From: Candidatus Moraniibacteriota bacterium
GTDB lineage: Bacteria > Patescibacteriota > Minisyncoccia > Moranbacterales > UBA1568
Length of the DNA: 38,937 nucleotides
Direction: 5' to 3'
Assembly: GCA_049303555.1 (NCBI GenBank)
Contig: JBAQNF010000096.1
Location: 1-38,937 of the forward strand
Notes under the pieces: generated by a model
Database searches by the model: none
What the model saw: the letters and a program-made list of their open reading frames with translations, nothing else
Told to the model about the DNA's origin: nothing
Position numbers and translations under genes: made by a program
In this document: one piece after another, positions 6,018 through 32,330 of the stretch
How the letters are laid out: each line of letters starts with the position of its first letter
Numbering within the stretch: position 1 is the first letter of the stretch

Positions 6018-6019
6018 CA

Positions 6020-6048: not shown

Positions 6049-6115
6049 GGGTATTAAGAAGGTCGGGTGAGGCCTTCCCAGGGTGATTTAATCAACCAGG
6101 GAAAATATCACAATT

Positions 6116-10719: not shown

Positions 10720-12903
10720 ATGTCAGAACCTTGGTACAAAAAACTAATTGGGGGGTTTCGCCAAAAAAGCTACGGCGAAGTTGAAGTGACTGGTGGACTC
10801 GAAATTCTTTCGAAGTTGACTACCACTGAATTGTCGAAGTCGACTATGCTCGAGAAGTATCGAAAGAGCTTGTATGTTTTTGCCTGTATCAACAAGATTG
10901 CGATGAAGGTGGCCTCGGTGCAGATCGAGATGTACAAGATCAAGAACAGCCACGGAGACCTGGACGAAATCAAGACCCACCCGGCTCTGGATTTGCTGTA
11001 TCAGATGAATCCTTTTCAGACGAAGACGGAGTTCCTGGAAATTACCATGATCAACCTGAAGTGTACCGGGGATGCGTTCTGGTACAAGGTGCGAAATAAT
11101 TCTGGGCAGGTGATGGAGTTGTGGAACTTGCGTCCAGACTACATGACTATCCTGACTGACCCGGTAAATTTTATTAAAGGATATCGCATGAGAAAATCCG
11201 ACGGGAAGACTGTCGATTTTAAGCCGGAGGATATCATCCATTTCAAATACCCTGACCCATTGAATCAATACATGGGTCTTTCGCCTTTGCGGGCGGCACA
11301 GAAGCGTGTCATGACTGAGGAATATGCGACGCAATGGCAGAGTGATTTCTTTTTGAACAGCGCCAGACCAGATGGGTTGATTAAGAATTCGAATACAACT
11401 TTGAGCAAAGACCAGAAGGAAGACATCCGCGAGTCGTGGGGAAAGCGCCATGGTGGTCTGAATAACGCCTACAAGGTTGCCATACTCGAAGGTGGCCTCG
11501 AGTATCAGCTCATCTCTCTATCGCAGAAGGAGATGGATTATATCGAGTCCCTGAAGTTTACGCGTGATGATATTCTCGTGGCGTTCCAGGTACCGAAGCC
11601 GATCGTCGCAATCGTGGACGATGTGAACCGCGCGAACAGCGAGACGGCCATGCAGATTTTCCTTGCTGAAACTATCAAGCCGGAAGTGGATCGTCTGTGG
11701 GAGAAGGTGACAGAGCAACTCATCAGCCAAGATTTCGGTGAGGAGTTCTTCGTCTTGCCAGTAGACCCGACCCCGAAAAACCGGGAGCTCGAGCTCAAGG
11801 AATACTCGGAGGGAATCACGAATCGGTATCTGCTCATCAACGAGGTCCGCGCTTTGGAGGGATTGCCTCCAGTGAAGGGCGGGTGGTCTTTCTATGGGAC
11901 GCTGGCTGAACTGCCGATGGGAGGACTTTCGAACGGCGAGCAGAAGTCTATGATCAAGCGTTTGGACAAAGAGGAAAAGGAAAACGAGAAAACCATCACC
12001 GCAACGATGGCCGAAAAGAAAGTGAAGCGGTACAACTGGCAAGGAAAATTCTGGCTCAAGCAGAAGTTTGTTATCTATGAAACAATGCTCGAAGCTACTG
12101 TGAAAGCAATGAGTGGGAAGAAAAAACGGGACGGCAAGAAGGTCAAAGGAAAATTTGTTTCACTCCTGAAAGACAAAGAGGTGAAGTCGGCTTATGCCAG
12201 TCTTGTGAACAAGGGAATTGATGGCCGGGCCGATCGTTTGAAGAGTGCCACCGATACGTTCTTCAAGGGGCAAATGCACCGAGTTCTTGGTGAGCTTTCG
12301 AAAAAGAAATCAAAAGAGAACCAGAAGAAAATCACCGCAGAAGGAATTTTGAAATATGATAAAGAGGTCGGACTGTCTGTTGAGTTCATCATCCCGTTCA
12401 TTGAGAGCTATCTTAAGGAATCAGCACAGGAAGCCTTGAACATGCTGGCACCACAAGAGGACTATCAGGATTCTAAAAAGATCCAGAAGAGAATTGAGAA
12501 ACGAGCTGAGGAATTTGCTAAGAGTGTGAACTCGACCACCCTGGAGAAACTATCCACAACGCTGGCAGAAGGGATTGCTGAAAGCGAAGGAATCCAGAAG
12601 CTGACGGAACGTGTGGAAGAAGTCTATGCTGATTTCCCGGCGTATCGAAGTGAGATGATTGCCAGGACAGAGGCGACTGTGGCCAATGCAGAGGGTGCTT
12701 TGGAAGGGTTCAGACAGTCGGGAGTGGCGACTGGAAAAGAATGGATCAATTCTGGTGATGACCGGGTGCGCGAAGAACACCAGGACGGAGCTGGGGTTGG
12801 AGGCGAAATTGTTGCATTGGATAAGAACTTTTCGAATGGGCTCGGCTATCCGGCAGAGCCGAATTGTCGGTGTGTTGTTGGCCCGGCGTTTCTCGAGGAG
12901 TAG
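10720..12903 (+). CDS. portal protein fused to a MuF-like (SPP1 gp7-type) minor head protein domain
   Basis: The N-terminal ~430 aa is HK97-family portal-like (LYVFACINKIA..., FWYKVRN, GLSPLRAA, ETIKPEVDRLWE). The C-terminus YRSEMIARTEATVANAEG...WINSGDDRVREEHQD..G...F......YPAEPNCRCV is the Phage_Mu_F signature. Confidence 0.8.
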   Translation: MSEPWYKKLIGGFRQKSYGEVEVTGGLEILSKLTTTELSKSTMLEKYRKSLYVFACINKIAMKVASVQIEMYKIKNSHGDLDEIKTHPALDLLYQMNPFQTKTEFLEITMINLKCTGDAFWYKVRNNSGQVMELWNLRPDYMTILTDPVNFIKGYRMRKSDGKTVDFKPEDIIHFKYPDPLNQYMGLSPLRAAQKRVMTEEYATQWQSDFFLNSARPDGLIKNSNTTLSKDQKEDIRESWGKRHGGLNNAYKVAILEGGLEYQLISLSQKEMDYIESLKFTRDDILVAFQVPKPIVAIVDDVNRANSETAMQIFLAETIKPEVDRLWEKVTEQLISQDFGEEFFVLPVDPTPKNRELELKEYSEGITNRYLLINEVRALEGLPPVKGGWSFYGTLAELPMGGLSNGEQKSMIKRLDKEEKENEKTITATMAEKKVKRYNWQGKFWLKQKFVIYETMLEATVKAMSGKKKRDGKKVKGKFVSLLKDKEVKSAYASLVNKGIDGRADRLKSATDTFFKGQMHRVLGELSKKKSKENQKKITAEGILKYDKEVGLSVEFIIPFIESYLKESAQEALNMLAPQEDYQDSKKIQKRIEKRAEEFAKSVNSTTLEKLSTTLAEGIAESEGIQKLTERVEEVYADFPAYRSEMIARTEATVANAEGALEGFRQSGVATGKEWINSGDDRVREEHQDGAGVGGEIVALDKNFSNGLGYPAEPNCRCVVGPAFLEE

Positions 12904-12910
12904 GCCCCTA

Positions 12911-12937
12911 TTGTATAAAAATAAAAAGTGCTATACT
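12911..12937 (+). promoter_or_regulatory. extended -10 promoter (TTGTAT-N15-TGC-TATACT)
   Basis: TATACT 12932-12937 preceded by TG at 12929-12930. Sequence-similar to the element at 10675-10700. Confidence 0.4.
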
Positions 12938-12943
12938 AACCCT

Positions 12944-13747
12944 ATGAAAAAGAAACTGCTCCAAGAGAAGCAAGAGATCCATCGTGGGTACAGCTTCAAC
13001 ACGAAGAGTATCGACAAAGAAAACTTCACAGTGGAGGGAGTTTTTTCGACGGAGGATGTTGACCGGCATGGTGAGGTCGTTATGCAAAACGGCTGGAAGC
13101 TGGATGCTTACCGAATGAATCCTATTGTGGCTTGGGCCCACAAGACCGGAGATCTGCCGATCGCAAAGATGTTGACCATCGAGGTGGATGGACAGAATCG
13201 TTTGGTGGGAAAAATGCAGTTCGCAGTCAATGAATATCCTTTTGCAAAAACAGTCTTTGACATGATCGCGGGTGGATTCCTCAATGCGTTCTCGGCTGGA
13301 TTCATGAACGAGATCTACCAGATTGACCAGAATGAGGACATCGTAATCCTCAATGAGAACGAACTCTTCGAAGTTTCTGTGGTGCCTATCCCGGCAAATA
13401 AGTTGGCACTGGTGAAGTCGAAGGGAATTGATACAAGCCTTTATGAAAAAGAAATTGAGGAAGCCGGATATGTGAAGCAGGTGCAGTTCGAGATACCGAC
13501 CATGACAGAAGCGGATGCGGTCGAAGTCATCTCAAAATCCAATAAAGAAACCATACGCTCGACGATAGCCACTCTGACGGAGCTGGTGAAAGACGACGCG
13601 GAAGCCGATACTAACAAGGGTGTTCAGGTCGATCACTCCACGACAGCGAAAGCTAAAGTGGGCGGCAAAAACAAAGTCTCCGTCAAATCACTCAATCGGG
13701 CCATCCGTGACCTGTTGGGTGTAAAAAAATCTATAACAAAAATATAA
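12944..13747 (+). CDS. HK97-family prohead maturation protease (S78/U35-like)
   Basis: ATG 12944 inside tracked ORF 12659-13747. FSTEDVDRHGEVVMQNGWKLDAYRMNPIVAWAHK...PIAK and ELFEVSVVPIPAN are hallmark motifs. Confidence 0.8.
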   Translation: MKKKLLQEKQEIHRGYSFNTKSIDKENFTVEGVFSTEDVDRHGEVVMQNGWKLDAYRMNPIVAWAHKTGDLPIAKMLTIEVDGQNRLVGKMQFAVNEYPFAKTVFDMIAGGFLNAFSAGFMNEIYQIDQNEDIVILNENELFEVSVVPIPANKLALVKSKGIDTSLYEKEIEEAGYVKQVQFEIPTMTEADAVEVISKSNKETIRSTIATLTELVKDDAEADTNKGVQVDHSTTAKAKVGGKNKVSVKSLNRAIRDLLGVKKSITKI

Positions 13748-13749
13748 GT

Positions 13750-15072
13750 ATGAATCTCAAAGAATTGCTGAAGAAGCTTCTTGAGAATGCTGCCGGCCTC
13801 AGTGTTGAGGAGAAAGCGTTCTTGGCTTCAAACGAAGATTCCATGAGCGACGTTGAAAAGGAAGCCTTTGCAAAAGTCGCCGTGGAAGAGGAAGAGGGAA
13901 TCGACAAGGAAGCTCTTAAGGCCCTTGTTGGGAAGTCGATTGAAGACGCTCTCGCTGGACGCGTGGACAAAATCTCTGACCAGATCGTGGCCAAGTTCCA
14001 GAAGGGTGTAAATGCTGCCCGGGCCAAGGTGCTCGATGGTGTCGAGGAAGAGGAAGAGAAGAAAGATGAGAAGGCAAAGGGTTTTGCGACCCGTGAGTTC
14101 TTGAAGGCCCTTATGAACGGCGACAAGGCTCGCGCTAAGGCTGTCACTACGGACGACGCAGGTGCCGCTCCGGATGATACCAAGGCAGGTCTCTTGATTC
14201 CTGACGAACTTCGCACTGAAGTTTTGCGGATCAAGGAAACTCAGTATGGTCTCGCTCGTCGCGAAATGTTTTATCTCCCGTTCTCTGGTCCTGGCAATAG
14301 CCGAACCATTCCAGCTCTCGGAACTTCTGTTACCGTAAAATGGACAGATGAGAAGGGCAAGAAGAAATCCACTCAGCCTAAGTTCTCAGTGATCACTCAG
14401 ACGCTGAAGAAACTCGCTGCTATCGTACCTTTCACCGAGGAAATCCTCGAGGACAGTGCAATCGATATCGTGAAGTTGGTTGGTGAATTGTTTGCAGAAG
14501 CAACCGCAAAAGAAGAAGACCTCCAGTTCTTTGCTGGTACTGGATCCCCATGGACTGGTATCTTGAACAATGGATCGGTCAACATCGTGACCATGCTGAC
14601 GGGTGAAGCAAATGACAATCTCGCAGACGAACTCCTTCGTATGCAGGATGCTACCCCATCAGGTGCGCAGGATGGTGCAAAATATTTCATGCACCGTTCA
14701 TGGCTCAATCGGATTCGCAAAATGAAGTCGAGCACTGGTGATTACGTCTACACCAAGCCTTCTGATGGTCAGCCGGCTATGATCTGGGACAAGCCAGTAG
14801 TTCTCTCAGATGCCTTTCCATCGACTGCCGATGTGCAGGTAGGAGATCCTTTCGTACTCTACGGAAATCTCAAGCAGGCCGCAGTGTTTGGCGACAAGCA
14901 ACAGCTTCGTGTGAAGCTCCTTGATCAGGCCACCATCACTGATACCGATGACTCAACGATCATCAATCTTGCTGAGCAGGATATGGTCGCTCTCCGAGTT
15001 GTCGAGCGTGTTGGGTACACTGTAGCTCTCGCAGCCGCAGCGACGGTTCTGAAGTACGCCGAAGAATCCTAA
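13750..15072 (+). CDS. major capsid protein, HK97 fold, with an N-terminal delta/scaffold-like coiled-coil
   Basis: Acidic coiled-coil N-terminus, then LIPDELRTEVLRIKETQYGLARR...LKKLAAIVPFTEEILEDSAIDIV...EEDLQFFAGTG, typical of Phage_capsid. Follows the protease. Confidence 0.85.
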   Translation: MNLKELLKKLLENAAGLSVEEKAFLASNEDSMSDVEKEAFAKVAVEEEEGIDKEALKALVGKSIEDALAGRVDKISDQIVAKFQKGVNAARAKVLDGVEEEEEKKDEKAKGFATREFLKALMNGDKARAKAVTTDDAGAAPDDTKAGLLIPDELRTEVLRIKETQYGLARREMFYLPFSGPGNSRTIPALGTSVTVKWTDEKGKKKSTQPKFSVITQTLKKLAAIVPFTEEILEDSAIDIVKLVGELFAEATAKEEDLQFFAGTGSPWTGILNNGSVNIVTMLTGEANDNLADELLRMQDATPSGAQDGAKYFMHRSWLNRIRKMKSSTGDYVYTKPSDGQPAMIWDKPVVLSDAFPSTADVQVGDPFVLYGNLKQAAVFGDKQQLRVKLLDQATITDTDDSTIINLAEQDMVALRVVERVGYTVALAAAATVLKYAEES

Positions 15073-15093
15073 TGTTGGATTCGGGGCTTGAAA

Positions 15094-15156
15094 GAGGGGG
15101 GAAATTTTCCCCCTTCCCATCAGGCTCCGATCCGGCCCGGACGGTCGAGCCGGGAG
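15094..15156 (+). terminator. two GC-rich hairpins after the capsid gene (terminator/attenuator-like)
   Basis: The stem GAGGGGGGAA / TTCCCCCTTC (about 10 bp, 15094-15116) and the bipartite stem CTC..CCGGC / GCCGG..GAG (15125-15156). No long U-tract. Confidence 0.35.
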
Positions 15157-15183
15157 TCTAATCAAAAAACGAACAACAATCTT

Positions 15184-15696
15184 ATGGCATCAACAGTTGA
15201 AATTGACGAGGCTAATGGCGCGGGTGAGACTCTTACTCACAACATTACAAACTCGAACATGGGCAGTGCTGATGAGGTCAACACTGATCCAGTGGCTAAC
15301 CCGATTGCACCAGCTACGCATACCTACATCAAGTATCAAAAGGTTCATGTGACGGCGATGGGCGGGTCTTCGAAAATCGACAATCTGAAAGTCTGGCGAA
15401 CAGGAGCATTGGGAACTGGGGGCACGCATGCGCATGTCACCAACGCCAGAGAGTCTTCCTACGCGGGAGCCTTGGCCTATGCTACTCCTGTACGTACCAC
15501 GCCGGTTGCGACAGTGACGCAGGCTATGCCTACATCGGTGCCTACTGGGGCGAACCTTGGAATCGGTGGATCTCTTACTGGAAGCCTCACTGCAACAGGG
15601 TCGTCTGACTACCTCGGACATCAGATCACGACCGACGCTTCGGCCACTGCAGGAAGCACGAGCACGATGAACTATCAATACGATGAAACCGCTTAA
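15184..15696 (+). CDS. Ser/Thr/Gly/Ala-rich protein (possible head decoration protein)
   Basis: ATG 15184 inside tracked ORF 15088-15696. 170 aa with S/T/A/G-rich tracts (TTPVATVTQAMPTSVPTGANLGIGGSLTGSLTATGSS). Located immediately after the MCP gene. Confidence 0.45.
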   Translation: MASTVEIDEANGAGETLTHNITNSNMGSADEVNTDPVANPIAPATHTYIKYQKVHVTAMGGSSKIDNLKVWRTGALGTGGTHAHVTNARESSYAGALAYATPVRTTPVATVTQAMPTSVPTGANLGIGGSLTGSLTATGSSDYLGHQITTDASATAGSTSTMNYQYDETA

Positions 15697-15708
15697 TCAA
15701 AAATACCT

Positions 15709-15903
15709 ATGAGCCAAATTCACAAATGCGGAAAATGCGATTTGGAGTTTTCTTCGGAAGAATCGTATGTCGCACATGAGTGCGAAGCGACTGGGGTTAC
15801 TCCAGCCGATCCAGAACACCAGGGGCCAGAGTTTGTAGCCATTCAGGAAGCAGCACTGGCTCGCGGTGAAGAGCGCAAAGCAGCAGAAGAGGCAGTGGTG
15901 TAG
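15709..15903 (+). CDS. small zinc-finger protein (C-x2-C-x12-H-x-C)
   Basis: HKCGKCDLEFSSEESYVAHEC resembles a C2H2/C2HC finger. Acidic C-terminus. Confidence 0.4.
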   Translation: MSQIHKCGKCDLEFSSEESYVAHECEATGVTPADPEHQGPEFVAIQEAALARGEERKAAEEAVV

Positions 15904-15919
15904 TAGTACAATTTGAAGT

Positions 15920-15952
15920 CAATACAATGACCCGCTTACAGGCAATACAATG
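15920..15952 (+). repeat. two copies of CAATACAATG spaced 23 bp
   Basis: Exact 10-mers at 15920-15929 and 15943-15952, with a partial TACAAT at 15907. Confidence 0.6.
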
Positions 15953-15955
15953 CCG

Positions 15956-15986
15956 ATCCCTGTGGCGAAAGTCTCAGGGATTTTTT
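15956..15986 (+). terminator. rho-independent terminator
   Basis: Stem ATCCCTG / CAGGGAT (15956-15962 / 15975-15981), 12-nt loop, T6 run. Confidence 0.65.
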
Positions 15987-16005
15987 ATAAGATAGTAAAA
16001 ACACT

Positions 16006-16407
16006 ATGAAATATTTATTCAAAAAAGAGGGGGAGAAAGATGTAGAAGTCCAGAAGGAGCGTTGGACATGGGGCGTCGTTTATAAAGATGGAAGCCAGCT
16101 CAATCAATTCCGTGAAGAGGACGGGAGTTTCCATCAGTTTGTAGAGATCAAGCAGGATGATGTTTCCATGTTCGTGATGTATTCAGGGGAGAAGCGGATT
16201 GATATCGTTGTGGAAGGAAAACAGATTTTCCACTTTTACCGGAATGTGGTCTTCTCGTACAACTCAGAAGATGAGAGGAAGGTGCGTGTCTATTGCTTCG
16301 GGTATAAAAACAAAGAGACTGGAGAGGCGGTCTACAATTACATCCTTCCAGATGATCGGGTCGTGGTCAGTGATCGCGATATTGATGTAACAAAATTCAA
16401 TATATAG
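16006..16407 (+). CDS. hypothetical beta-rich protein (133 aa)
   Basis: Starts with the exact leader AAAACACTATGA, just after a terminator. I recognise no motif. Confidence 0.5.
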   Translation: MKYLFKKEGEKDVEVQKERWTWGVVYKDGSQLNQFREEDGSFHQFVEIKQDDVSMFVMYSGEKRIDIVVEGKQIFHFYRNVVFSYNSEDERKVRVYCFGYKNKETGEAVYNYILPDDRVVVSDRDIDVTKFNI

Positions 16408-16409
16408 CT

Positions 16410-18602
16410 ATGATTAGGAACTACGAATTGATCGATAAATATATCGACATTATTGACCCGGAAACAATCAACCGGCTTTTGTGGTTCCAATCTAAAATTG
16501 GGTATTATGTTGGACACCTTCCGATTGTGCGACCGGCCATCATTTGGCTCGAAGATTTTTTTACAAAGAGAGGACGAAGGAGTTCGAAGTTTGCTCGTAT
16601 GCTTCACTGGGCAACGGGCAATTCTATATTTTATTTGGACTACGTAGGGGGATCAGACGCGGCTTCTGGAGCAGACTGGGCGAATGCGTGGAAGACGCTA
16701 ACACTCGGGGCTACGGCGGCACGTATAGCGCCGGGTGATGTGATCCGTATTGCAAAGAGTCCGGCTCCGACTTCACTCGGGATGACAGCAGCATGGACCG
16801 ATCTTTCAAGGACAGTCACACTCAATTCTGCTTTGACCGCTGTTATAGAAGACTGCGAAGATGCCTGGGTAGCCTCTGCAAACGTTACTTGTACAACTTC
16901 TGCGACTAATAAAGAAGGGACGAATTCAGCTTCGATTGCTATCGCTGCAGGATTTACTACTGGAAAAGTAGCCTATGAAGCCCTGGCTGGATCGACTGAT
17001 TTTTCAGGGTACCAGCAGGTTTCTTTTTGGATCCGAACTTCAGTAGCAATAGCGGCAGGAGTATTGACACTCGATTTGTGTTCAGATACTATCGGAGCTA
17101 CCTCAGTCAATTCAATCGCTATCCCAGCCATACCTGGAACATCAGTGTGGCAAGTGGTTACGGTAGACACAGGCGCAGCTTTGGGGTCAGCGATTCAATC
17201 TATTTCTATCAATGCTGTATCTGACCCAGGAGCTCCAACGATTCTTATTGACAATATTATTGCTTGCAAGGATTCTTCTGCGGCAGATAGTCTGACGCTC
17301 TCCTCTCTTATTTCAAAAAATTCTGCTGAGCAAGGCGGAGCTGAGGCGTGGCATACAATTCAGAGCATCAGTGGGACCACTGTCATATTAGACGCACATA
17401 CGGGAACGGAAGCTGGTACGGGGAGAGGATATTCAGGAACGACTGAAACGGTAACGACGTATAAAAGAGAAACTATCAAAACTACTCCAACCACAAACTC
17501 CACCGATATAGTTGGAAGTGTTACTGATTCTGGAACTCTTGGAAGCAATATAGAGTACCAAGGCGGGTACGATACGGGAACATCTCTCCAGACTGGTGAA
17601 ACGTTTTTTGATGGACAAAATTCAAATGGGCATGGTATTTCTTTGGTATCAAAGAGCTTTATAACGTTGAACTATCTCAACTTCCATAGATATAGTACTG
17701 GTATAAACTTGAGTGGTTCTCACAATAATACGATACAACACATAAGCAATATTGTTGGCTGTGGTTTCATGGGCATATCTCTCTCATCAAGTTGCAATAA
17801 CTATATAGGAAAAATCTTAAATTGTATCAACTGCGGAACCAACAGTGGAATGCGAATGATTTCCAGGAGTAGCAACAATTATATAGAAGAAATTTCGAAT
17901 ATTAGCGGTAACGGTACCGGATTGAGCTTCTCTGGAAGCGATTTGAATACCATTGTATTGATAGGAAAAGCAAATAACAATGCATCGTATGGCGTTAGCT
18001 TCTTTGATTCAAGTTTGAATAAAATTGGAAGCATTGTAACGGCATCAAATGGTACTGCTGGTATAGATACTAATGCCATCAATTATATTGAAACAGCTGA
18101 TATATCAGAGTCAACAAAAGTAACTGCTCGGGGTGACTTCCAAAACTGTTTAGTTTTTATAAATAAATTCAATGGCACTGGACACCCAAAAATATTCGCT
18201 GATGGAGGGAATATTGTTAGACAGACTTCGACACTTACAAATGGGTCAGGTTTTCAGTGGTTGTTTACAACAGAAACAAACACGAATAGGCAATCTAATT
18301 ATCCGCTTAGACTAACAATCGCTAAGATAGCTGTTACCGCCAACAATCTCGTTACAGTGAAGGCATGGTTTCTTAAAGGTCATGCCACGAATATAGGTGC
18401 GAAATTAGTATGTAGGGGAGGACAGATTGCTGGGGTAGCAACAGATGTTACGGCGACGAAAGCCAATGATACAGCCGAGGAAGAATTGACTATCACGTTC
18501 ACGCCGACCGAAGATGGTGTCGTGGAAATTGAAGCGTGGGCGTATTATGTTGCTGGTCATTCGACTGTCATTGTAGACGCCATGACAATAACGCAGGCAT
18601 AA
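16410..18602 (+). CDS. right-handed beta-helix (pectate-lyase fold) tailspike/depolymerase-like protein
   Basis: FYLDYVGGSDAASGADWANAWKTLTLGATAARIAPGDVIRIAKS is typical of a beta-helix N-cap. There are PbH1-like repeats (NNTIQHISNIVGCGFMGISLSSSCNNYIGKILNCINCGTNSGMRMISRSSNNYIEEISNISGNGTGLSFSGSDLNTI). Confidence 0.6.
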   Translation: MIRNYELIDKYIDIIDPETINRLLWFQSKIGYYVGHLPIVRPAIIWLEDFFTKRGRRSSKFARMLHWATGNSIFYLDYVGGSDAASGADWANAWKTLTLGATAARIAPGDVIRIAKSPAPTSLGMTAAWTDLSRTVTLNSALTAVIEDCEDAWVASANVTCTTSATNKEGTNSASIAIAAGFTTGKVAYEALAGSTDFSGYQQVSFWIRTSVAIAAGVLTLDLCSDTIGATSVNSIAIPAIPGTSVWQVVTVDTGAALGSAIQSISINAVSDPGAPTILIDNIIACKDSSAADSLTLSSLISKNSAEQGGAEAWHTIQSISGTTVILDAHTGTEAGTGRGYSGTTETVTTYKRETIKTTPTTNSTDIVGSVTDSGTLGSNIEYQGGYDTGTSLQTGETFFDGQNSNGHGISLVSKSFITLNYLNFHRYSTGINLSGSHNNTIQHISNIVGCGFMGISLSSSCNNYIGKILNCINCGTNSGMRMISRSSNNYIEEISNISGNGTGLSFSGSDLNTIVLIGKANNNASYGVSFFDSSLNKIGSIVTASNGTAGIDTNAINYIETADISESTKVTARGDFQNCLVFINKFNGTGHPKIFADGGNIVRQTSTLTNGSGFQWLFTTETNTNRQSNYPLRLTIAKIAVTANNLVTVKAWFLKGHATNIGAKLVCRGGQIAGVATDVTATKANDTAEEELTITFTPTEDGVVEIEAWAYYVAGHSTVIVDAMTITQA

Positions 18603-18612
18603 AATATTATGT

Positions 18613-20367
18613 ATGGCATTACCGACACCAGCAGACTTATCAACGATTGACTATGCCTCTAAGGGCCAGCCTTTTGTTGATGTTCCAGCAAAGAGTGGGA
18701 TTGGGTTGGAGTCGATGGATTTTTCTTTCAATGGTCAGCCGTTTGTGACGAACCCAGACGCAACTGGCGGGGGGGTGACCGAGGTATCAATTACAAAGTC
18801 ATTGAAGTATTGTGTTGAGCGAGCACCGTCAGCTCTCACTAAGTCACTGAAATATACTGTCGAGGTAACACCAAGCGCGATCACGAAATCTTTGTCGTAT
18901 GCGGTTGAGAAGGGTATTGCTGTCACGAAATCTCTTCAGTACACGGTTGAGGCAACGCCGTCTGCTGTGACAAAATCATTAAAGTATACGGTTGAAATTA
19001 CACCGAGTGCGCTGACGAAATCCCTTGAATATAATGTTGTTGCGACGCCTTCGGCTGTGACGAAGAGTCTGTCATATGAGGTTGAAAGCCCAGTGGCCGT
19101 CACGAAGTCTCTCAAATATTGTGTGATAGTTGAAGCCGCTGGAAATCCGACAAAAAGTCTTTCATATAATATTCTGATAGCGTCTGCTATCACTAAGGGG
19201 CTGGTCTATCTTGTAGAGTCGACCCATGCAGCTATTACAAAGTCCCTCAAGTATACGGTTTCAAAAACTGCTTCTGCGATAACTAAGGGCTTGATCTATA
19301 GCGTGGTGCTGACGCCTTCTGGAATTACTAAGGCGTTGAAGTATACGGTGAAGCAGGCGCCGGCGCCAAAACAAAAGTCACTCCAATATGCAGTGTTCTT
19401 CCTGACAGATAGCGTTACAAAATCACTTTCTTATGAAGTGAAGAGCGCTCAGGCTGTCACAAAATCCTTGAAGTATACAGTGACGGTTGCTGCTTCTGCT
19501 ATCACAAAAGGCCTTGAATATGTCGTGACTGGCGGGAATATCATCCAGGCAGCTTTGACCTACATGATCAAGCAGGCACCGGCTGCGAAGACTAAGGGTC
19601 TGATTTATATGGTTGTACAGGTGGCCAGTGCTATCCAAAAAGGATTGATTTACAATGTCGAGAGACAGGCGGCTATCACTAAGGGGCTTGTCTATGCTAT
19701 TAAGGGTCAGAGTGCTGTCGCAAAGAGCTTGAAATATACCGTTACGGTACAGGGATCAGCAATCTCAAAAGGCTCTCAATATGCTGTTAGACGCGAAAAT
19801 TCGACCACCAAGGGGCTTTCGTACAGTGTCGAGACATCTGGTGCTATCACTAAGGGGCTGATATATAGGGTTGAAAAACAGGGGGCGCTGACAAAATCTC
19901 TGAAATATGGTGTAAAAGTAACACCTGCGGCAAAAACGAAGGCGCTTCAATATGCTGTTGAGAAGTCTGGAGCTATCACCAAGGGTCTCACATATCTGGT
20001 GGAAGTTCAGGGTGCGATTACAAAGAGTGAGAAATATACGGTTGTCGCTCAAAAATCAAAAACTAAGTCGCTCAAGTATACTGTCACGGTGATTGGAATG
20101 GCGATCACTAAAGCATTGCAATATGTGATGGGACAAGTAGACACGTTCTCTGTTACGAAGGCATTGACCTATCGAGTGAGTGTCGGACAACCGGTCACGA
20201 AATCTATTCGGTATGTAGTCAAGGCTCCTCATGTAGTTACCAAGTCAATGAGGTATGTCATCAGGGTGTACCCGTACAAGAAAAAAGTATCGACTCCCTA
20301 TTCAAAAAAGACCAGTCCGTTCATCAAGAAAAATGCTCCTTACACTAAGATTCCAAGAGTGGTATAA
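18613..20367 (+). CDS. tandem-repeat fibre-like structural protein (about 34 x 13-16 aa)
   Basis: Repeats such as TKSLKYTVEVTPSAI, TKSLSYAVEKGIAV and TKGLIYSVVLTPSGI. The N-terminus carries a duplicated GQPFV motif. Basic C-terminal tail. Confidence 0.7.
   Translation: MALPTPADLSTIDYASKGQPFVDVPAKSGIGLESMDFSFNGQPFVTNPDATGGGVTEVSITKSLKYCVERAPSALTKSLKYTVEVTPSAITKSLSYAVEKGIAVTKSLQYTVEATPSAVTKSLKYTVEITPSALTKSLEYNVVATPSAVTKSLSYEVESPVAVTKSLKYCVIVEAAGNPTKSLSYNILIASAITKGLVYLVESTHAAITKSLKYTVSKTASAITKGLIYSVVLTPSGITKALKYTVKQAPAPKQKSLQYAVFFLTDSVTKSLSYEVKSAQAVTKSLKYTVTVAASAITKGLEYVVTGGNIIQAALTYMIKQAPAAKTKGLIYMVVQVASAIQKGLIYNVERQAAITKGLVYAIKGQSAVAKSLKYTVTVQGSAISKGSQYAVRRENSTTKGLSYSVETSGAITKGLIYRVEKQGALTKSLKYGVKVTPAAKTKALQYAVEKSGAITKGLTYLVEVQGAITKSEKYTVVAQKSKTKSLKYTVTVIGMAITKALQYVMGQVDTFSVTKALTYRVSVGQPVTKSIRYVVKAPHVVTKSMRYVIRVYPYKKKVSTPYSKKTSPFIKKNAPYTKIPRVV
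18793..20268 (+). repeat. in-frame coding tandem repeat array, period about 39-48 nt
   Basis: About 34 diverged copies encoding T-K-[SGA]-L-x-Y-x-V-x-x-x-x-[SA]-A-[IV]. The copies differ at the DNA level. Confidence 0.8.
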
Positions 20368-20388
20368 TTCGATTACTAAAAAACTTCT

Positions 20389-21006
20389 ATGCCGAAGGGA
20401 TATACAACCAGAGCAAAAATAGAGAATTACCTGTTGATTGATATTGACTCGAGTTTTCACGACCAGGTGGATGCGTGGATTGAGGAAGTTGAGGCGTATA
20501 TCGACACGAAAACAGGACGGAACTTTGTAGCTGATCCAGAAGAGAGCGGTGTAGATGCTGGAGCTTCGACCCGTCGTTTTGATGGTGACGGAACGAACAA
20601 GCAAATTATCGATGATTGTGTTGAGGTGACGAGCGTGAAGCTTTCTGATGAGGATGATCCGCTCGAGTTAGAAGATTATGTACTGTACCCAGCAAATGCT
20701 CAGGCACTTTCTCGACCGGTTCCGTACACGCTCATTCGACTTTTGTCCGGAGCGTTTCCATCATATCCACCGCAAGGAATATATGTGAAAGCACGATGGG
20801 GATATTCAGAGCTGGCGCCGAAAGATATTCAGACCGTAGCGACGGTGTTGGTTGCGGGAATAATAAACTACTCTTGGAATGCGGAAGGCGAAGTGAAGAG
20901 TGAATCGATTGGTCGGTATTCTGTGACTTACAAAGACGACGCAGGATGGAAGGATTTTGAGAGAATCGAACCGACGCTTGCTTCGTATATAAAATATTCA
21001 TTCTGA
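20389..21006 (+). CDS. head-tail connector (gp6-like adaptor)
   Basis: The N-terminus TRAKIENYLLIDIDSSFHDQVDAWIEEVEAYIDTKTGRNF is typical of gp6-like head-tail connector proteins. First gene of the connector block. Confidence 0.5.
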   Translation: MPKGYTTRAKIENYLLIDIDSSFHDQVDAWIEEVEAYIDTKTGRNFVADPEESGVDAGASTRRFDGDGTNKQIIDDCVEVTSVKLSDEDDPLELEDYVLYPANAQALSRPVPYTLIRLLSGAFPSYPPQGIYVKARWGYSELAPKDIQTVATVLVAGIINYSWNAEGEVKSESIGRYSVTYKDDAGWKDFERIEPTLASYIKYSF

Positions 21007-21007
21007 T

Positions 21008-21322
21008 ATGGGCATTGAAAGAAACTATACCCAAGTGGCGGAAGTCTACCGACTATCGAACGAGGAATCGGGATATGGTCAGGATTATTCTTTGCACCTT
21101 GCTGATGTAGCTTGTCATTTGCAGCCGCTGGACGATCGTTATTCTGAAGACCTTGAGGGAAGTTTTGGGAAAGATTTTCTGATGATCTGCGGGAATGTGG
21201 ATATTAAAGAAGGAGATCGTGTCACTGTTTCAGCTATCGAATATAGAGTGACGGCCGTTGAAGTGTATATGCTCGGAGGTATACCGCATACGGAGTTGAC
21301 CATCAGAACATTCAATCCATGA
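21008..21322 (+). CDS. head closure / head-tail joining protein
   Basis: 104 aa, position after the adaptor, C-terminal YRVTAVEVYMLGGIPHTELTI pattern. Confidence 0.4.
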   Translation: MGIERNYTQVAEVYRLSNEESGYGQDYSLHLADVACHLQPLDDRYSEDLEGSFGKDFLMICGNVDIKEGDRVTVSAIEYRVTAVEVYMLGGIPHTELTIRTFNP

Positions 21323-21780
21323 GTGATATAAATTTTGAAATCCGAGGGCTGGATAAATTGCGGACCGCCTTGAAAAGAGCGCCAGCATTGGCGATTCAGG
21401 AGTTCGGGAAAGCGATTCAGAAGTCGGCACTGACGATTCAGAGCAATGCAATCAAAGAAGCGCCGGTGAATAAGGCAACGGGCGGCGGAAACCTTCGGCA
21501 GAATATACGTGTGACATCGATGACGAAGACGCGGGCGGTTGTTACTTCCAAGGCGCCGTACTCGATATTTGTGGAAGAGGGAACGAGTCCACACACGATC
21601 GAGGTGAAAAATAAGCGGGTGCTGGCGAACAAGCGGACCGGACAATTCTTCGGAAAGAAGGTCAATCACCCGGGGACCAGAGCGAATCCCTTCATGAGGA
21701 GGGCGGTGGATAAAAGCAAGGGTCTCGTGGAATCGTATTTCATGACTGCGATGAATAAAGTTCTCAAATCTCTGACATAA
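21319..21780 (+). CDS. HK97 gp10-family tail-component (neck) protein
   Basis: IQSNAIKEAPVNKATGGGNLRQNIRV...SKAPYSIFVEEGTSPHTI matches the HK97 gp10 family signature (aPv.tG.Lr.si...YA.yvE.G). Confidence 0.7.
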   Translation: MSDINFEIRGLDKLRTALKRAPALAIQEFGKAIQKSALTIQSNAIKEAPVNKATGGGNLRQNIRVTSMTKTRAVVTSKAPYSIFVEEGTSPHTIEVKNKRVLANKRTGQFFGKKVNHPGTRANPFMRRAVDKSKGLVESYFMTAMNKVLKSLT

Positions 21781-21784
21781 AACT

Positions 21785-22228
21785 ATGGCAACATCAACCA
21801 TCACCGGAGTCATGGCACTCCTCAAAGCGAAAATGGAAGCGCTCCAAATTGGAGGGCTGGATGTTTTTGGGGCAGTCTCGGACTTCGCGAATGGTGACTT
21901 CGAAGGATACCCGGCTTGCATGATCACTGAGATTGGCGGGAAGGGAGAAACGATGGACACTCATCGGAACCAACGGACGCATGAATTTATGATTCGTCTT
22001 TACCAGGAACAAAGCCGGGCCGGAAAGACAAAGGAAGATGCGGCGACCAAAATGCGGTCTGTATGCGATGCAGTTCTGGCGGCTCTTGATACTGACAAAA
22101 CTCTTTCTGGCGAGGTGGATATTGTCCGGGTGGTTGAGTTTGAGACGAGTTTTAAGGTAACGGCTGGGACATTCAATTTCGCTTCGTTCCGGGTACAGGT
22201 AGCTGTCCTTGTGCTAAATCATAATTGA
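21785..22228 (+). CDS. tail completion/terminator-like protein
   Basis: 147 aa. Called on position between the gp10-like gene and the major tail gene; DUF3168-like feel only. Confidence 0.35.
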   Translation: MATSTITGVMALLKAKMEALQIGGLDVFGAVSDFANGDFEGYPACMITEIGGKGETMDTHRNQRTHEFMIRLYQEQSRAGKTKEDAATKMRSVCDAVLAALDTDKTLSGEVDIVRVVEFETSFKVTAGTFNFASFRVQVAVLVLNHN

Positions 22229-22243
22229 CCCTATACTGCAACT

Positions 22244-22429
22244 ATGAAATACAAAAATATCAGTAGAAAAACTCTGTCGATTCCCGGTGTCGGGGTAGTG
22301 GAAGCTGGCAATGAGATCGAGACAGAAAAGGAAATCATAAACGAGAACTTCACGCGTGTCGATATGAAGTCAGACAAAATTTCAAATACCAAATCGGTCG
22401 AAGAGCCGAAGGATAATTCGCAAAAATAA
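22244..22429 (+). CDS. hypothetical protein (61 aa)
   Basis: Compact ORF filling the gap. No motif. Confidence 0.35.
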   Translation: MKYKNISRKTLSIPGVGVVEAGNEIETEKEIINENFTRVDMKSDKISNTKSVEEPKDNSQK

Positions 22430-22435
22430 AAGTGT

Positions 22436-23638
22436 ATGCACTACATTTCAGACCTGGCCTATATGGCCTTTGGAAAGCAGTCCTCGGCGGTCGCGGCTGT
22501 AATCCCAGACGTATTCGTGCCTCTGATGGAAGAGGACATGAAAGTGGATCCGAAGAATGAGCGGGTCAAGCAGATTGTCGGTATCAACTGGTCGTCTAAC
22601 AAAATGCTGCAGGGCTTGCGAGAAGTCGGCGGCAGTTTCACTATCCAGTGTGATCCTGAGAACATCGGACATATTCTCAATATGGTGTTGGTAAAAGACA
22701 CCACGAGCGGAAGTGCACCAGTCGGATATACTCATCCATTCCTTGAGGATGGTGAGCCAGAATTTTATACGATCGATATTGTAAAAGGAAATGCTGTCCA
22801 GCGTTTCGTCGGTTGTCAGATCACGAAGGTCGAGTTCTCCTTTCAAGATAGCCACCTTATCGCAAAATGTGATGTCATCGCACGTCACGCGTTCTCAGTG
22901 GGAACATTGAAGACGGCTCTGACTGGCGCTGGCATGGTAGCCGTTGTCTTTGACGAAGGATATGATCCGGAGCCTGTTCTTGGACTGGTGGCCGGAGATA
23001 TTATTCAGGTGCAGGCTGATGACGGGTCATTCACGGATGTCACTATCGCTACGATTGTCGCAGGGAACAAGAGTGTGACCATGAGTGCGACTGCTGTGAC
23101 GGCTTCGATCGGAGCGCTGATCTCTCTTAAGGCACAGACCCCAAGCTATGCAGCATTGAAGCGTCCATTCAAGTTCGGGCAATGTCTCGTTGGATTCGGT
23201 GCCGATCAGACAGCGGCAGACGCGAATGTCGCCTCCTATGCCTTGGCTACTCCAGTCGATGACTTCAAGCTAACCATCAATCGGAACATTACCCGAAGAC
23301 GGGCGACTGGAAAGAATGACGCGCTGACCCTTATTGGGACAGGAGACGCAGAATTGACAGTCAAGAAGCTCTTCGAAGACGCTGAGCAACAGCAGCAATG
23401 GATGGACATTGCTAAAAAGGCATGTTCGATTCTCTTCACTGGAGACAACATTGCGACCACCTACTACTGCACACTCGCAATCAAGCTCCACAATATCAAG
23501 CCAAGCGATCATGGAAACAAGCTTTCCAAGGGTGAGTACGTCTTCGATGAGACGACCTTTATGGTCGAGTACGATGACACTGATGGTATGGCGATGGAAG
23601 TCACGCTCCTTAATGCGACAGCGGGAACTGAGTACTAA
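22436..23638 (+). CDS. major tail protein (tube), large variant
   Basis: Called from synteny: it immediately precedes the frameshifting chaperone pair and the tape measure gene. 400 aa. Confidence 0.5.
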   Translation: MHYISDLAYMAFGKQSSAVAAVIPDVFVPLMEEDMKVDPKNERVKQIVGINWSSNKMLQGLREVGGSFTIQCDPENIGHILNMVLVKDTTSGSAPVGYTHPFLEDGEPEFYTIDIVKGNAVQRFVGCQITKVEFSFQDSHLIAKCDVIARHAFSVGTLKTALTGAGMVAVVFDEGYDPEPVLGLVAGDIIQVQADDGSFTDVTIATIVAGNKSVTMSATAVTASIGALISLKAQTPSYAALKRPFKFGQCLVGFGADQTAADANVASYALATPVDDFKLTINRNITRRRATGKNDALTLIGTGDAELTVKKLFEDAEQQQQWMDIAKKACSILFTGDNIATTYYCTLAIKLHNIKPSDHGNKLSKGEYVFDETTFMVEYDDTDGMAMEVTLLNATAGTEY

Positions 23639-31394: not shown

Positions 31395-31811
31395 ATGAAG
31401 ATAGATGATGTAAAAAAAGCAAAAGAAATCATGTACCCTGTAGGGTATTCTGTTTATTTTCTTACGGATGAATCGGGAGAGATTGTTTATGTTGGAGAGA
31501 GCGCAAGAAGTGCGGTACAGAGAATATCGTCTCACGCCTACACGAAGGAGTATAGTCGAGTATTTTTTATTCCATGTAAAACAAAAGAGGAGATGGATAT
31601 ACTGGAAGCAACAATGATTATTGCGGCTTCTCCGAAATATAAACGACGCATAGATAATCCAGCTGTTCTTGGATTGGTTGGGGTGACCGAACTGAAACGG
31701 ATGGGCCACCGTACTGGGGCAATAATCAACGCAGTCAATGACCACAAAATAAAGACGGTTCAGGTAGGAACGAACTCTTATTTTGAGAAAAGAATAGTGG
31801 ATCTTATATAA
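31395..31811 (+). CDS. GIY-YIG-like (T5orf172-like) domain protein
   Basis: YSVYFLTDESGEIVYVGESARSAVQRISSH...EEMDILEATMI resembles GIY...YVG...R...H...E spacing. Starts with the exact leader AAAACACTATGA. Confidence 0.4.
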   Translation: MKIDDVKKAKEIMYPVGYSVYFLTDESGEIVYVGESARSAVQRISSHAYTKEYSRVFFIPCKTKEEMDILEATMIIAASPKYKRRIDNPAVLGLVGVTELKRMGHRTGAIINAVNDHKIKTVQVGTNSYFEKRIVDLI

Positions 31812-32317: not shown

Positions 32318-32330
32318 AAAAAACATCACT

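What the first reader, a model, noticed from the sequence alone, without database searches (positions are those of the whole stretch)
18613..20367. 584-aa protein built from about 34 tandem 13-16-residue repeats, a possible beta-spiral-like fibre encoded in the head module
Seen in sequence: the first 60 residues contain a duplicated motif, D[YF]xxxGQPFVxxP (DYASKGQPFVDVP and DFSFNGQPFVTNP). After that, residues about 61-552 are an uninterrupted array of about 34 units. The consensus is T-K-[SGA]-L-x-Y-x-V-x-x-x-[P/A/G]-[SA]-A-[IV], for example TKSLKYTVEVTPSAI, TKSLSYAVEKGIAV, TKGLIYSVVLTPSGI and TKALQYAVEKSGAI. Unit length varies between 13 and 16 residues, and the DNA copies are well diverged. 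The periodicity is therefore maintained at the protein level and is not an assembly artefact or a recent duplication. The C-terminus is a basic tail with P[YF]xKK mini-repeats (YPYKKK, TPYSKK, SPFIKK, APYTK). Inference: each unit has hydrophobic residues at i, i+2 and i+4, followed by a small-residue or Pro turn, with a period of about 15 residues. This is reminiscent of the triple beta-spiral shaft repeats of adenovirus fibre and reovirus sigma-1, which would be unusual in a tailed phage. I recognise no named repeat family that fits. The gene sits between the capsid gene and the head-tail connector genes, next to a beta-helix enzyme-like protein, which suggests a head fibre or a non-canonical fibre.
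Basis: partly seen in the sequence, partly recalled or inferred. Interest (0 to 1): 0.75.

Follow-up and report, generated by a model that had tools for sequence, protein, structure and literature searches.

The report
Modular repeat-stalk fibre protein of phage
This phage gene encodes a stalk made of 34 short beta-strand repeats of an undescribed family; it probably anchors to the virion by its tail end and holds a sugar-binding or sugar-cutting enzyme at its other end, in the one part of the genome that differs sharply from a close relative.

Summary
ORF 18613..20367 (+) encodes 584 aa with 34 tandem 14-16-residue units, T-K-[SGA]-L-x-Y-x-V-...-A-[IV]. Tyr is present in 34/34 units and Lys in 33/34. 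Codons are mixed and there is no DNA-level tandem repeat.

The repeat belongs to an unnamed, metagenome-only phage family of 743 clusters. It has no Pfam, PHROG, PDB or Foldseek match.

The family has three independent modules:
- An N-terminal end that is either a large lectin or glycosidase domain, or a short tandem peptide motif.
- A stalk of about 6 to more than 60 units.
- A C-terminal capping unit plus an aromatic/basic tail.

In the window the N-terminus is a duplicated GQPF motif. In 12 of 16 loci this motif follows a homologue of the upstream 730-aa parallel beta-helix protein. One such locus is virus MetMV, where the beta-helix protein is 50% identical.

A sister phage is 81-97% identical in all other structural proteins, but DNA similarity breaks exactly over 15888..20282 and resumes in the last 28 codons of this gene. 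The C-tail type tracks the type of head-tail adaptor encoded downstream (23/2/0/24).

Best reading: a C-terminally anchored neck or head fibre stalk that docks the beta-helix protein and forms the lineage's host-recognition cassette.

The parts
18613..20367 (+). The whole 584-aa repeat-stalk protein gene, here called the TKSL-repeat protein.
   Evidence: ORF. There are 132 homologues in metagenomes and 743 representative clusters.
18613..18792 (+). N-terminal module (residues 1-60). It starts MALPTPADL and carries two copies of D[YF]xxxGQPFV. Proposed docking site for the upstream beta-helix protein.
   Evidence: - It is 49% identical to the N-terminus of the MetMV protein that follows the MetMV beta-helix homologue.
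- The same module lies within two ORFs downstream of beta-helix homologues in 12 of 16 assessable loci.
- In those loci it is fused to quite different stalks.
18793..20280 (+). Array of 34 tandem 14-16-residue units (residues 61 to about 556), consensus T-K-[SGA]-L-x-Y-x-V-x-x-x-(P)-S-A-[IV]. Predicted all-beta. Proposed extended stalk.
   Evidence: Unit parsing and statistics are. AlphaFold2 gives one strand per unit and no helices.
20239..20367 (+). Last (capping) unit TKSMRYVIRVYPY plus the basic/aromatic tail with four P[YF]xKK-like mini-repeats. Proposed virion anchor.
   Evidence: - DNA similarity to the sister phage resumes at 20283, inside this tail.
- The R[VI]YPY..PYxKK tail is shared by many family members.
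- It is also found on a protein with a non-TKSL stalk (L099).
- The tail class tracks the downstream adaptor class: 23/2/0/24, p = 5.6e-12.
16410..18602 (+). 730-aa right-handed parallel beta-helix-type protein. Proposed distal glycan-binding or depolymerase partner carried by the stalk.
   Evidence: - It is 50% identical over about 700 aa to the MetMV 783-aa protein.
- It has at least 1470 homologues, many carrying Pfam Beta_helix or NosD.
- The window protein itself has no Pfam hit.
16006..16407 (+). 133-aa ORF ending ..YNYILPDDRVVVSDRDIDVTKFNI. It is conserved at this position in related phages. It lies inside the swapped cassette and its role is unknown.
   Evidence: It is only 46% identical to its counterpart in the sister phage, whose flanking genes are 86-97% identical. 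The same family occupies the same slot in IMG/VR loci.
15888..20282 (.). Cassette that has been replaced relative to the sister phage from Hainich groundwater.
   Evidence: blastn shows 86% identity over 13001-15887 and 85% over 20283-22999. Only two short weak matches lie in between.
20389..21006 (+). Head-tail adaptor starting MPKGYTTRAKIENYLL. It is the backbone protein whose type co-varies with the stalk's C-terminal tail, and is a candidate docking partner.
   Evidence: It matches phrog_442, head-tail adaptor, at E = 2.5e-13. Covariation is shown.

Best explanation
The 584-aa protein is the stalk subunit of a two-component accessory fibre of a siphovirus, most likely attached at the neck or head.

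It has three modules:
1. The C-terminal capping unit and the P[YF]xKK tail fix it to the conserved virion. The candidate partner is the head-tail adaptor ring.
2. The 34 beta-strand units form an elongated, strongly basic stalk.
3. The N-terminal tandem GQPF motif recruits the 730-aa parallel beta-helix protein encoded immediately upstream. That protein would bind or degrade a host surface glycan.

Relatives reach the same arrangement by fusing a lectin or glycosidase domain directly to the N-terminus of the stalk. The cassette is the exchangeable host-recognition or adhesion determinant of an otherwise conserved phage lineage.

What is shown:
- the repeat anatomy;
- the family and its modular architectures;
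- the cassette swap and its boundaries;
- co-occurrence of the GQPF module with the beta-helix gene;
- covariation of the C-tail with the adaptor type.

What is inferred:
- physical docking at either end;
- the attachment site on the virion;
- the oligomeric state and fold;
- glycan targeting.
For: **Phage context**
- The window encodes terminase, portal-MuF, protease, HK97-type capsid, adaptor, tube, tape measure, Dit and a 413-aa Tal, followed only by small ORFs and a GH25 lysozyme. There is no large fibre gene in the tail module.

**Family architecture**
- N-termini vary: Laminin_G_3, GH18, GH8, CBM96, MAM, fn3 and DUF2341.
- Arrays range from about 6 to more than 60 units.
- The last unit and tail are conserved.

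**Cassette swap**
- The sister phage L002 is 81-97% identical in every structural protein, including Dit at 92% and Tal at 97%.
- It is only 47% identical in this gene. It has one fused 924-aa gene where the window has the 730-aa and 584-aa genes.
- DNA similarity breaks at 15888 and resumes at 20283, which is 28 codons before the stop.

**GQPF module and beta-helix gene**
- The pairing is seen in MetMV, in IMG/VR loci L008, L010-L012, L014, L015, L018 and L020, and in L098 and L099.
- The GQPF module is fused to at least four unrelated stalks.
- In L099 it also carries an NPYxRK tail and sits next to a KGY-type adaptor.

**Other short-N-terminus members**
- They carry different tandem motifs (LLQEDG x2, PPxG x2).
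- They sit directly downstream of proteins that hit PHROG tail-fibre families, for example phrog_4492 at E = 5.7e-51.

**C-tail and adaptor**
- The [YF]PY tail against the KGY..ENYLL adaptor gives 23/2/0/24, Fisher p = 5.6e-12.

**Gene position**
- The gene lies in the head/neck gene block in three different phage backbones.
Against: - There is no direct evidence that the protein is in virions. No cultured phage carries it: tblastn against 50,697 phage records finds only the N-terminal module, in MetMV.
- Both AlphaFold2 models have low confidence (pLDDT 43 and 59). A rigid stalk is therefore assumed, not shown.
- The covariation of the C-tail with the adaptor is not corrected for phylogeny. 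It would equally fit docking to any other backbone protein, such as capsid, portal or tail.
- Gene adjacency and co-occurrence do not prove that the GQPF motif binds the beta-helix protein. Four of 16 beta-helix loci lack the motif.
- In the Daviesbacteria prophage proteins (P0118 type) a few units occur without the tail and with a C-terminal amidase. The repeat therefore also works in a different polarity.
Confidence: 0.55

Rival explanations
1. The array folds as a homotrimeric triple beta-spiral, like the adenovirus fibre shaft or reovirus sigma-1, and forms a long (about 40 nm) head fibre.
For: - The period is 14-16 residues, with length variation confined to a loop-like segment.
- The content is all-beta.
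- Low monomer pLDDT is what an obligate oligomer would give.
- When the unit is rotated to P-S-A-I-T-K-[SG]-L-x-Y-x-V, it loosely resembles the G/P-phi..turn..phi-x-phi layout. This is my own comparison from memory of the Ad2 shaft.
Against: - There is no Pfam Adeno_shaft or other hit.
- No adenovirus or sigma-1 structures appear among the Foldseek matches.
- Pro/Gly is not fixed: Pro is at position 12 in 58% of 15-mers, and Pro reaches 15% at position 11 of 14-mers.
- The invariant Tyr and Lys have no counterpart in beta-spirals.
- AlphaFold2 places one 9-10-residue strand per unit rather than two short ones.
Confidence: 0.1
2. The repeat array is itself the ligand-binding part. It would be a multivalent, cationic binder of cell-envelope glycopolymers, analogous to choline-binding or other cell-wall-binding repeats, rather than a passive spacer.
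For: - Every unit has an invariant Tyr and Lys.
- Net charge is +51 and pI 9.9, and 85% of family arrays are net positive.
- A few units accompany an Amidase_2 (PGRP-type) domain in prophage proteins of a Daviesbacteria genome. That is the usual layout of a lysin plus a wall-binding repeat.
Against: - About 15% of arrays are neutral or acidic.
- Most of the positive charge comes from the one motif Lys. Without it the median excess is +0.3 per unit.
- Relatives already carry dedicated lectin, CBM or enzyme domains at the N-terminus.
- In other loci, unrelated stalks (SPS-rich, T-rich, DSxxG repeats) replace the array between the same N- and C-terminal modules. That fits a spacer role.
- There is no hit to known wall-binding repeat families.
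Confidence: 0.2
3. The protein is not a virion component. It would be a secreted or lysis-associated accessory protein that happens to be encoded in the late operon.
For: There are no proteomic data. Some relatives carry peptidoglycan hydrolase or glycosidase domains.
Against: - The position immediately upstream of the head-tail adaptor is conserved in dozens of loci from several backbones.
- The C-tail co-varies with the adaptor type.
- Upstream partners match tail-fibre families.
- The window has a separate GH25 endolysin.
Confidence: 0.07

Closest known systems
Phage accessory head and neck fibres: phi29 gp8.5 head fibre, T4 fibritin whiskers, and the capsid fibres of phiCbK and 7-7-1 (from my own knowledge, and PMC12796354 for 7-7-1, phiCbK and phi29)
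   Same: The gene lies in the head/connector block. The product is an elongated repetitive protein. The presumed role is first contact with the host surface.
   Different: - The sequences are unrelated.
- This protein is all-beta with a 14-15-residue repeat. It is not the helix-turn-helix supercoil of phi29 or the coiled coil of fibritin.
- The conserved (anchor) end is C-terminal.
- The distal end is an exchangeable domain or a docking peptide.
Triple beta-spiral shafts (adenovirus fibre, reovirus sigma-1, PRD1 P5)
   Same: A period of about 15 residues, beta-rich content, loops of variable length, and a fibre role.
   Different: There is no sequence, profile or fold match. The hydrophobic pattern differs. 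There is no fixed Gly/Pro turn. Every unit has an invariant Tyr and Lys.
Pfam YTV repeat (PF07639, a 43-position model of unknown function). From memory, it was defined on Rhodopirellula proteins.
   Same: It shares a '..Y-T-V..' core. Two relatives (P0019, P0067) pass the curated cut-off, scoring 26.4 and 25.0 bits against 21. The model length of 43 is about three units, and a weak three-unit periodicity is seen in the family.
   Different: The window protein gives no YTV hit even at E <= 10, and none of 36 relatives hits it. YTV has no known structure or function (PMC8078820 lists it among families without a structural match).
Branched tailspike systems that use adaptor modules to hang several depolymerases on one attachment point (phages G7C, CBA120, K1-5; from my own knowledge)
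   Same: The logic is the same. A separately encoded beta-helix enzyme would be held on the virion through a short dedicated docking module carried by another structural protein, and the modules can be swapped.
   Different: In those phages the docking domains sit at the N-termini of the tailspikes themselves, at the tail tip. Here the docking peptide sits at the far end of a long repeat stalk, the genes lie in the head/neck block, and no homology was found.

Membership tests
Triple beta-spiral fibre shaft (adenovirus/reovirus type) | Pseudo-repeat of about 15 residues | tested here: met
   The units are 14-16 residues long. Across the family there are 1122 14-mers and 618 15-mers.
Triple beta-spiral fibre shaft (adenovirus/reovirus type) | Conserved Gly/Pro beta-turn at a fixed position in nearly every repeat, flanked by two short phi-x-phi strands | tested here: not met
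   Pro is at position 12 in 58% of 15-mers and at position 11 in only 15% of 14-mers. The hydrophobic pattern is L-x-Y-x-V plus A-I.
Triple beta-spiral fibre shaft (adenovirus/reovirus type) | Sequence, profile or fold similarity to known shafts | tested here: not met
   Pfam gives no hit, even at E <= 10. PDB phmmer and hmmsearch give none. Foldseek against PDB and BFVD gives no significant match and no fibre shafts, but the model has low confidence.
Triple beta-spiral fibre shaft (adenovirus/reovirus type) | Obligate homotrimer | not testable with these tools
   Only monomer AlphaFold2 was available. Low pLDDT (43 and 59) is compatible with an oligomer but does not show one.
Pfam YTV (PF07639) | Score above the curated gathering threshold | tested here: not met
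   The window protein has no YTV hit at E <= 10. None of 36 aligned relatives hits it. Only P0019 and P0067 pass the threshold.
Cell-wall-binding repeats (e.g. choline-binding CW_binding_1) | Profile match to a known wall-binding repeat family | tested here: not met
   There are no Pfam hits.
TKSL-repeat stalk family (unnamed; defined here) | Uninterrupted array of T-K-S-L-x-Y-x-V units with invariant Tyr and Lys | tested here: met
   The window protein has 34 units. Its relatives score 434 bits (E 4e-124) and below, and an HMM of the array finds 743 clusters.
TKSL-repeat stalk family (unnamed; defined here) | Special last unit ..[RQ]YV[IM]R[VI]YPY followed by a P[YF]-rich basic tail, with the gene directly upstream of a KGY..ENYLL head-tail adaptor | tested here: met
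   The window has TKSMRYVIRVYPYKKK.., and the adaptor starts MPKGYTTRAKIENYLL. The association across loci is 23/2/0/24.
Right-handed parallel beta-helix proteins (for the 730-aa partner) | Pfam Beta_helix (PF13229) or NosD (PF05048) repeats | tested here: inconclusive
   The window protein has no Pfam hit at E <= 0.01. Many homologues at 45-65% identity carry PF13229 or PF05048, and sources name some of them as parallel beta-helix repeat proteins.

The most novel reading that the evidence does not exclude
The TKSL repeat is a new fibrous beta fold. It would form the shaft of a previously unrecognised class of 'reverse-polarity', plug-and-play phage fibres.

These fibres would be anchored at the neck through a C-terminal aromatic/basic peptide. 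At the N-terminus they would display either a fused lectin or enzyme, or a short tandem docking peptide. Each motif type (GQPF x2, LLQEDG x2, PPxG x2) would recruit its own separately encoded receptor-binding protein.

Such fibres would be the main host-range determinant in a widespread group of groundwater phages. Some of these phages are linked to Patescibacteria (CPR), and their tail tips carry no large fibre.
Probability: 0.3. Interest if true: 0.7.

Novelty: new variant of a known kind. Interest (0 to 1): 0.6.

Why it matters
If the model holds, it identifies the host-recognition apparatus of a large group of uncultured phages. It also shows that in this group the apparatus is encoded next to the head and connector genes rather than at the tail tip. 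That affects host prediction and the annotation of metagenomic phages.

The model adds three things:
- a new repeat family, and probably a new fibrous fold, for structural study;
- a set of short tandem peptides that look like portable docking tags for receptor-binding proteins, which would be useful for engineering phage host range;
- a clear case of cassette exchange whose boundary falls inside a gene, at the junction between the stalk and the anchor.

The beta-helix/GQPF module is shared at 50% identity with a virus assigned to Methanosarcina. This suggests either exchange of adhesion modules across very different hosts, or a wrong host call for that virus.

Tried and rejected
- **DNA tandem repeats.** Tandem Repeats Finder found none.
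- **Family and structure searches on the 584-aa protein.** Pfam at E <= 10 and PHROGs gave nothing meaningful. PDB sequence and profile searches gave nothing.
- **Cultured phages.** tblastn against 50,697 phage records matched only the N-terminal 45 residues, in MetMV.
- **AlphaFold2, full length, with a 36-row alignment.** pLDDT was 43.
- **Register-shifted alignment from overlapping window fragments.** This failed because MAFFT aligned the true overlaps (A2).
- **In-register alignment of non-overlapping 12-unit fragments (A3).** This raised pLDDT only to 59.
- **Foldseek with that model.** Against PDB and BFVD the best hits were weak beta-helix or uncharacterised proteins. None reached E <= 1e-3 and none is usable.
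- **Search for a two-unit (hairpin) super-repeat.** There is no alternation at lag 2. There is only a weak excess at lag 3: 0.272 against about 0.25, with 22 of 71 arrays showing it. This is too weak to assign a three-units-per-turn solenoid.
- **Scans of representative genomes for host assignment.** The host link therefore rests only on a Daviesbacteria prophage and on MAG labels from Minisyncoccia, Moranbacteria and Patescibacteria.
- **Literature.** Searches for the repeat strings found nothing.
- **Considered and rejected.** Assembly artefact or recent duplication (codon diversity). A coding artefact from the overlapping minus-strand ORFs (homologues and conservation lie on the + strand frame only).
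Full report
**1.

ORF 18613..20367 on the + strand encodes 584 aa. Residues 61 to about 556 are 34 head-to-tail units of 14, 15 or 16 residues.

Conservation within the units:
- Tyr at position 6 is present in 34/34 units.
- Lys2 is present in 33/34, Leu4 in 30/34, Thr1 in 29/34 and Val8 in 29/34.
- Position 3 is always Ser, Gly or Ala.
- Units end in A-[IVL].

The core motif occurs 33 times, against 0.3 expected from shuffles. Tandem Repeats Finder sees no DNA repeat. Units are about 50% identical in nucleotides, and the conserved residues use all their synonymous codons. The repeat is therefore old and maintained by selection on the protein. The duplicated D[YF]xxxGQPFV motif in residues 1-60 and the C-terminal YPYKKK/PYSKK/PFIKK/PYTK tail are also as described.

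**2. Context.**

The window is a whole 38,937-bp contig (one search lists its own protein on a contig of that length). It is a siphovirus with this gene order:
- large terminase;
- portal fused to a MuF domain;
- S78 protease;
- HK97-type capsid;
- a conserved 171-aa protein;
- a 64-aa Cys/His ORF;
- a 133-aa ORF;
- the 730-aa protein;
- the repeat protein;
- a head-tail adaptor, further connector proteins, tube, tape measure, Dit and a 413-aa Tal;
- several small ORFs and a GH25 lysozyme.

There is no large fibre gene at the tail tip.

**3. A family exists, in metagenomes only.**

A word-indexed search found 132 relatives. The best is 47% identical, and none carries an informative name. An HMM of twelve units finds 743 clusters at 50% identity among 1.84 billion representatives, of which 219 score below E = 1e-30. 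No cultured phage record contains the array. Pfam, PHROGs and PDB give nothing for the window protein. Only two relatives pass the threshold of the uncharacterised Pfam family YTV, and none of 36 aligned relatives does.

Unit number ranges from about 6 to more than 60, with a median of 20.

The typical architecture is:
- a variable N-terminal region of 200-900 aa, including Laminin_G_3, GH18, GH8, CBM96, MAM, fn3 and DUF2341;
- the array;
- a special last unit (..RYVIRVYPY) and a tail rich in P[YF] and basic residues.

About 6% of members, including the window protein, instead have a short N-terminus that carries a tandem peptide motif.

**4. The C-terminus is the constant, backbone-linked end.**

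A 38.3-kb contig from Hainich groundwater (L002) has the same gene order. Its proteins are 81-97% identical to the window's: terminase 94%, portal 92%, capsid 88%, adaptor 93%, tube 95%, Dit 92% and Tal 97%. The repeat protein is only 47% identical, and the 133-aa ORF only 46%. A single 924-aa gene replaces the window's 730-aa and 584-aa genes.

At the DNA level, 86% identity stops at 15887. Similarity resumes (85% identity) at 20283, which is 28 codons before the stop of the repeat gene. The exchanged cassette therefore ends at the junction between stalk and tail.

I examined 49 non-redundant loci. Tails containing [YF]PY go with a downstream adaptor of the 'KGY..ENYLL' type in 23 cases. Two loci have the tail without that adaptor. 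No locus has that adaptor without the tail. In 24 loci neither is present (Fisher p = 5.6e-12, not corrected for phylogeny). Other tail classes go with other downstream proteins. The gene lies in the head/neck block in HK97-like siphoviruses, in SU10-capsid contigs, and in a contig where it sits between the portal and a putative capsid gene.

**5. The N-terminus is the exchangeable, partner-linked end.**

The 730-aa protein is 50% identical over about 700 aa to a 783-aa protein of the metagenome-assembled virus MetMV. The MetMV gene that follows begins with the same duplicated module, LPTRDELKTLDWAFQGQPF...MDWAFQGQPFV. It then continues into an unrelated domain that matches a PHROG 'virion structural protein' family.

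In IMG/VR and other contigs, 12 of 16 assessable homologues of the 730-aa protein are followed by a protein that starts with this module, either directly or after one small ORF. What follows the module differs from locus to locus:
- nothing (87-89 aa in total);
- Thr-rich repeats;
- an SPSxSPS tract, in L098, whose beta-helix protein is 81% identical to the window's;
- an 18-residue DSxxG repeat, in L099.

L099 has the same type of backbone and carries a Moranbacteria label. Its protein ends in NPYGRKANPYTRKNRPYSIIE and is followed by a KGY-type adaptor. The docking module, the stalk and the anchor therefore combine independently.

Other short-N-terminus family members carry different tandem motifs (YxLLQE[DN]G x2, YxPPxG x2, KYWIDGLP x2). 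They sit directly downstream of a different protein family that starts MADxKITELT (7 of 9 loci with the LLQEDG type). Members of that slot match PHROG tail-fibre families, for example E = 5.7e-51.

The 730-aa protein has at least 1470 homologues. Many carry the Pfam Beta_helix or NosD repeats.

**6. The fold is unresolved.**

AlphaFold2 on the whole protein gave a mean pLDDT of 43. A 12-unit fragment with an in-register 46-row alignment gave 59. Both models show only beta structure, with one strand of 7-10 residues per unit covering L-x-Y-x-V and 5-6-residue connectors where the length variation lies. Foldseek found no significant match in PDB or BFVD. There is no two-unit alternation and only a weak three-unit periodicity.

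The data fit several arrangements:
- a meander sheet that needs partners to bury the Leu/Tyr/Val face;
- a two- or three-sided solenoid;
- an oligomeric prism or spiral.

None of the specific hallmarks of the triple beta-spiral was met apart from the period length. The protein is very basic (net +51, pI 9.9). Most of this charge comes from the motif Lys, and 15% of family arrays are not basic.

**7. Interpretation.**

The simplest reading of points 3-6 is a three-module accessory fibre subunit:
- a C-terminal peptide anchor matched to the virion backbone;
- a repeat stalk of adjustable length;
- a distal end that is either a fused glycan-binding or glycan-cleaving domain or a tandem-peptide tag for a separately encoded one. 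In the window that partner is the beta-helix protein.

The locus is the only strongly divergent part of the structural region between near-identical phages, and the tail tip is minimal and conserved. This fibre is therefore the likeliest host-recognition or adhesion determinant.

The attachment site (neck or capsid), the stoichiometry, the fold and the actual contacts are all inferred. A role for the array itself in binding anionic envelope polymers is a live alternative, and it does not exclude the stalk role.

**8. Host.**

Host evidence is indirect:
- The GH25 lysozyme points to a peptidoglycan-bearing bacterium.
- Family members occur in a prophage of a 1.1-Mb Daviesbacteria genome and on contigs binned with Minisyncoccia.
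- Homologues of the 730-aa partner carry Moranbacteria and 'Patescibacteria group' labels.
- The sister phage comes from the 0.1-um fraction of Hainich groundwater, according to the record name.

MetMV's assignment to Methanosarcina rests only on in-silico predictions (PMC7164591).

**9. Novelty.**

Accessory head and neck fibres, and swappable receptor-binding modules, are known kinds. Four things appear to be undescribed:
- this repeat family;
- its C-terminal anchoring;
- the tandem docking peptides;
- the pairing with a mobile beta-helix gene.

Text searches for the repeat strings found no paper.

Noticed in passing
window 16410-18792; L001 (MetMV) 3635-6135: The beta-helix gene plus the first 45-50 codons of the next gene form a unit. 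A virus deposited as a Methanosarcina (archaeal) virus shares this unit at about 50% amino-acid identity, yet the window phage has a GH25 muramidase. Either adhesion modules move between very different host groups, or MetMV's host assignment, which is in silico only, is wrong.
   Followed up: partly
window 3328-6637: A run of polysaccharide-related genes sits in the left arm. It comprises a rhamnosyltransferase-like protein (3328-3963), a polysaccharide pyruvyl transferase (4427-5143), a Stealth CR2-like protein (5130-6017, below the Pfam cut-off) and an SLT transglycosylase (6116-6637). These genes might modify the host envelope or glycosylate virion proteins.
   Followed up: no
L098 3430-6986 and 8990-9400; L099 4697-6184: In two related loci, glycosyltransferase genes lie directly upstream of the beta-helix gene: three GT2 genes plus a methyltransferase in L098, and a 495-aa GT2 between the capsid and beta-helix genes in L099. 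In L098 the GQPF protein continues as an SPSxSPS tract. That ORF was not called by the source annotation. Together these hint at glycosylated stalks.
   Followed up: no
L011/L012 8258-8572; L099 9208-9438; L014 8010-8309; L015 8185-8676; L016 4473-4745; L009 8238-8492: A small ORF of 76-163 aa is often inserted between the beta-helix gene and the gene carrying the GQPF module. It shares a motif like ..R[VI]x[IV]xLxDGxxxxLxF..P[TS]xxE. It is absent from the window, where the two genes are 10 nt apart. It may be an assembly factor.
   Followed up: no
window 15181-15696 and 15709-15903: Two ORFs follow the capsid gene. The first is a conserved protein (MASTVEIDEANGAGETLTH...NYQYDETA) with no family hit. 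The TTG start at 15088 given by the ORF list is probably too early. The second is a 64-aa Cys/His-rich ORF (HKCGKCDLEF..HECEATG). Both recur at the same position in many related contigs.
   Followed up: partly
family-wide (P0001-P0120 arrays): Units three apart are slightly more alike than units one, two or four apart: 0.272 against about 0.25, and lag 3 is the best lag in 22 of 71 arrays. The Pfam YTV model is 43 positions long, about three units. This could reflect a three-unit structural turn or duplication in blocks of three.
   Followed up: partly
window 12659-13747: The protease ORF as listed starts at a TTG inside the portal gene and overlaps it by about 245 nt. The sister phage's called gene and the alignment suggest that the true start is near 12900.
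   Followed up: no
window 7263-8159, 31395-31811, 32274-32777, 33617-34021, 36106-37038: Other recognisable genes are a C5 cytosine DNA methylase, a GIY-YIG nuclease-like ORF, SSB, a small fn3-domain protein and RecT. No tRNA genes and no exact terminal repeat were found.
   Followed up: no
L006 10001-12589 (Daviesbacteria genome, prophage with an SU10-type capsid): A few TKSL units occur in the middle of an 862-aa protein that has a C-terminal Amidase_2 domain and no aromatic/basic tail. The repeat is therefore also used in a different architecture, possibly a virion-associated lysin.
   Followed up: partly
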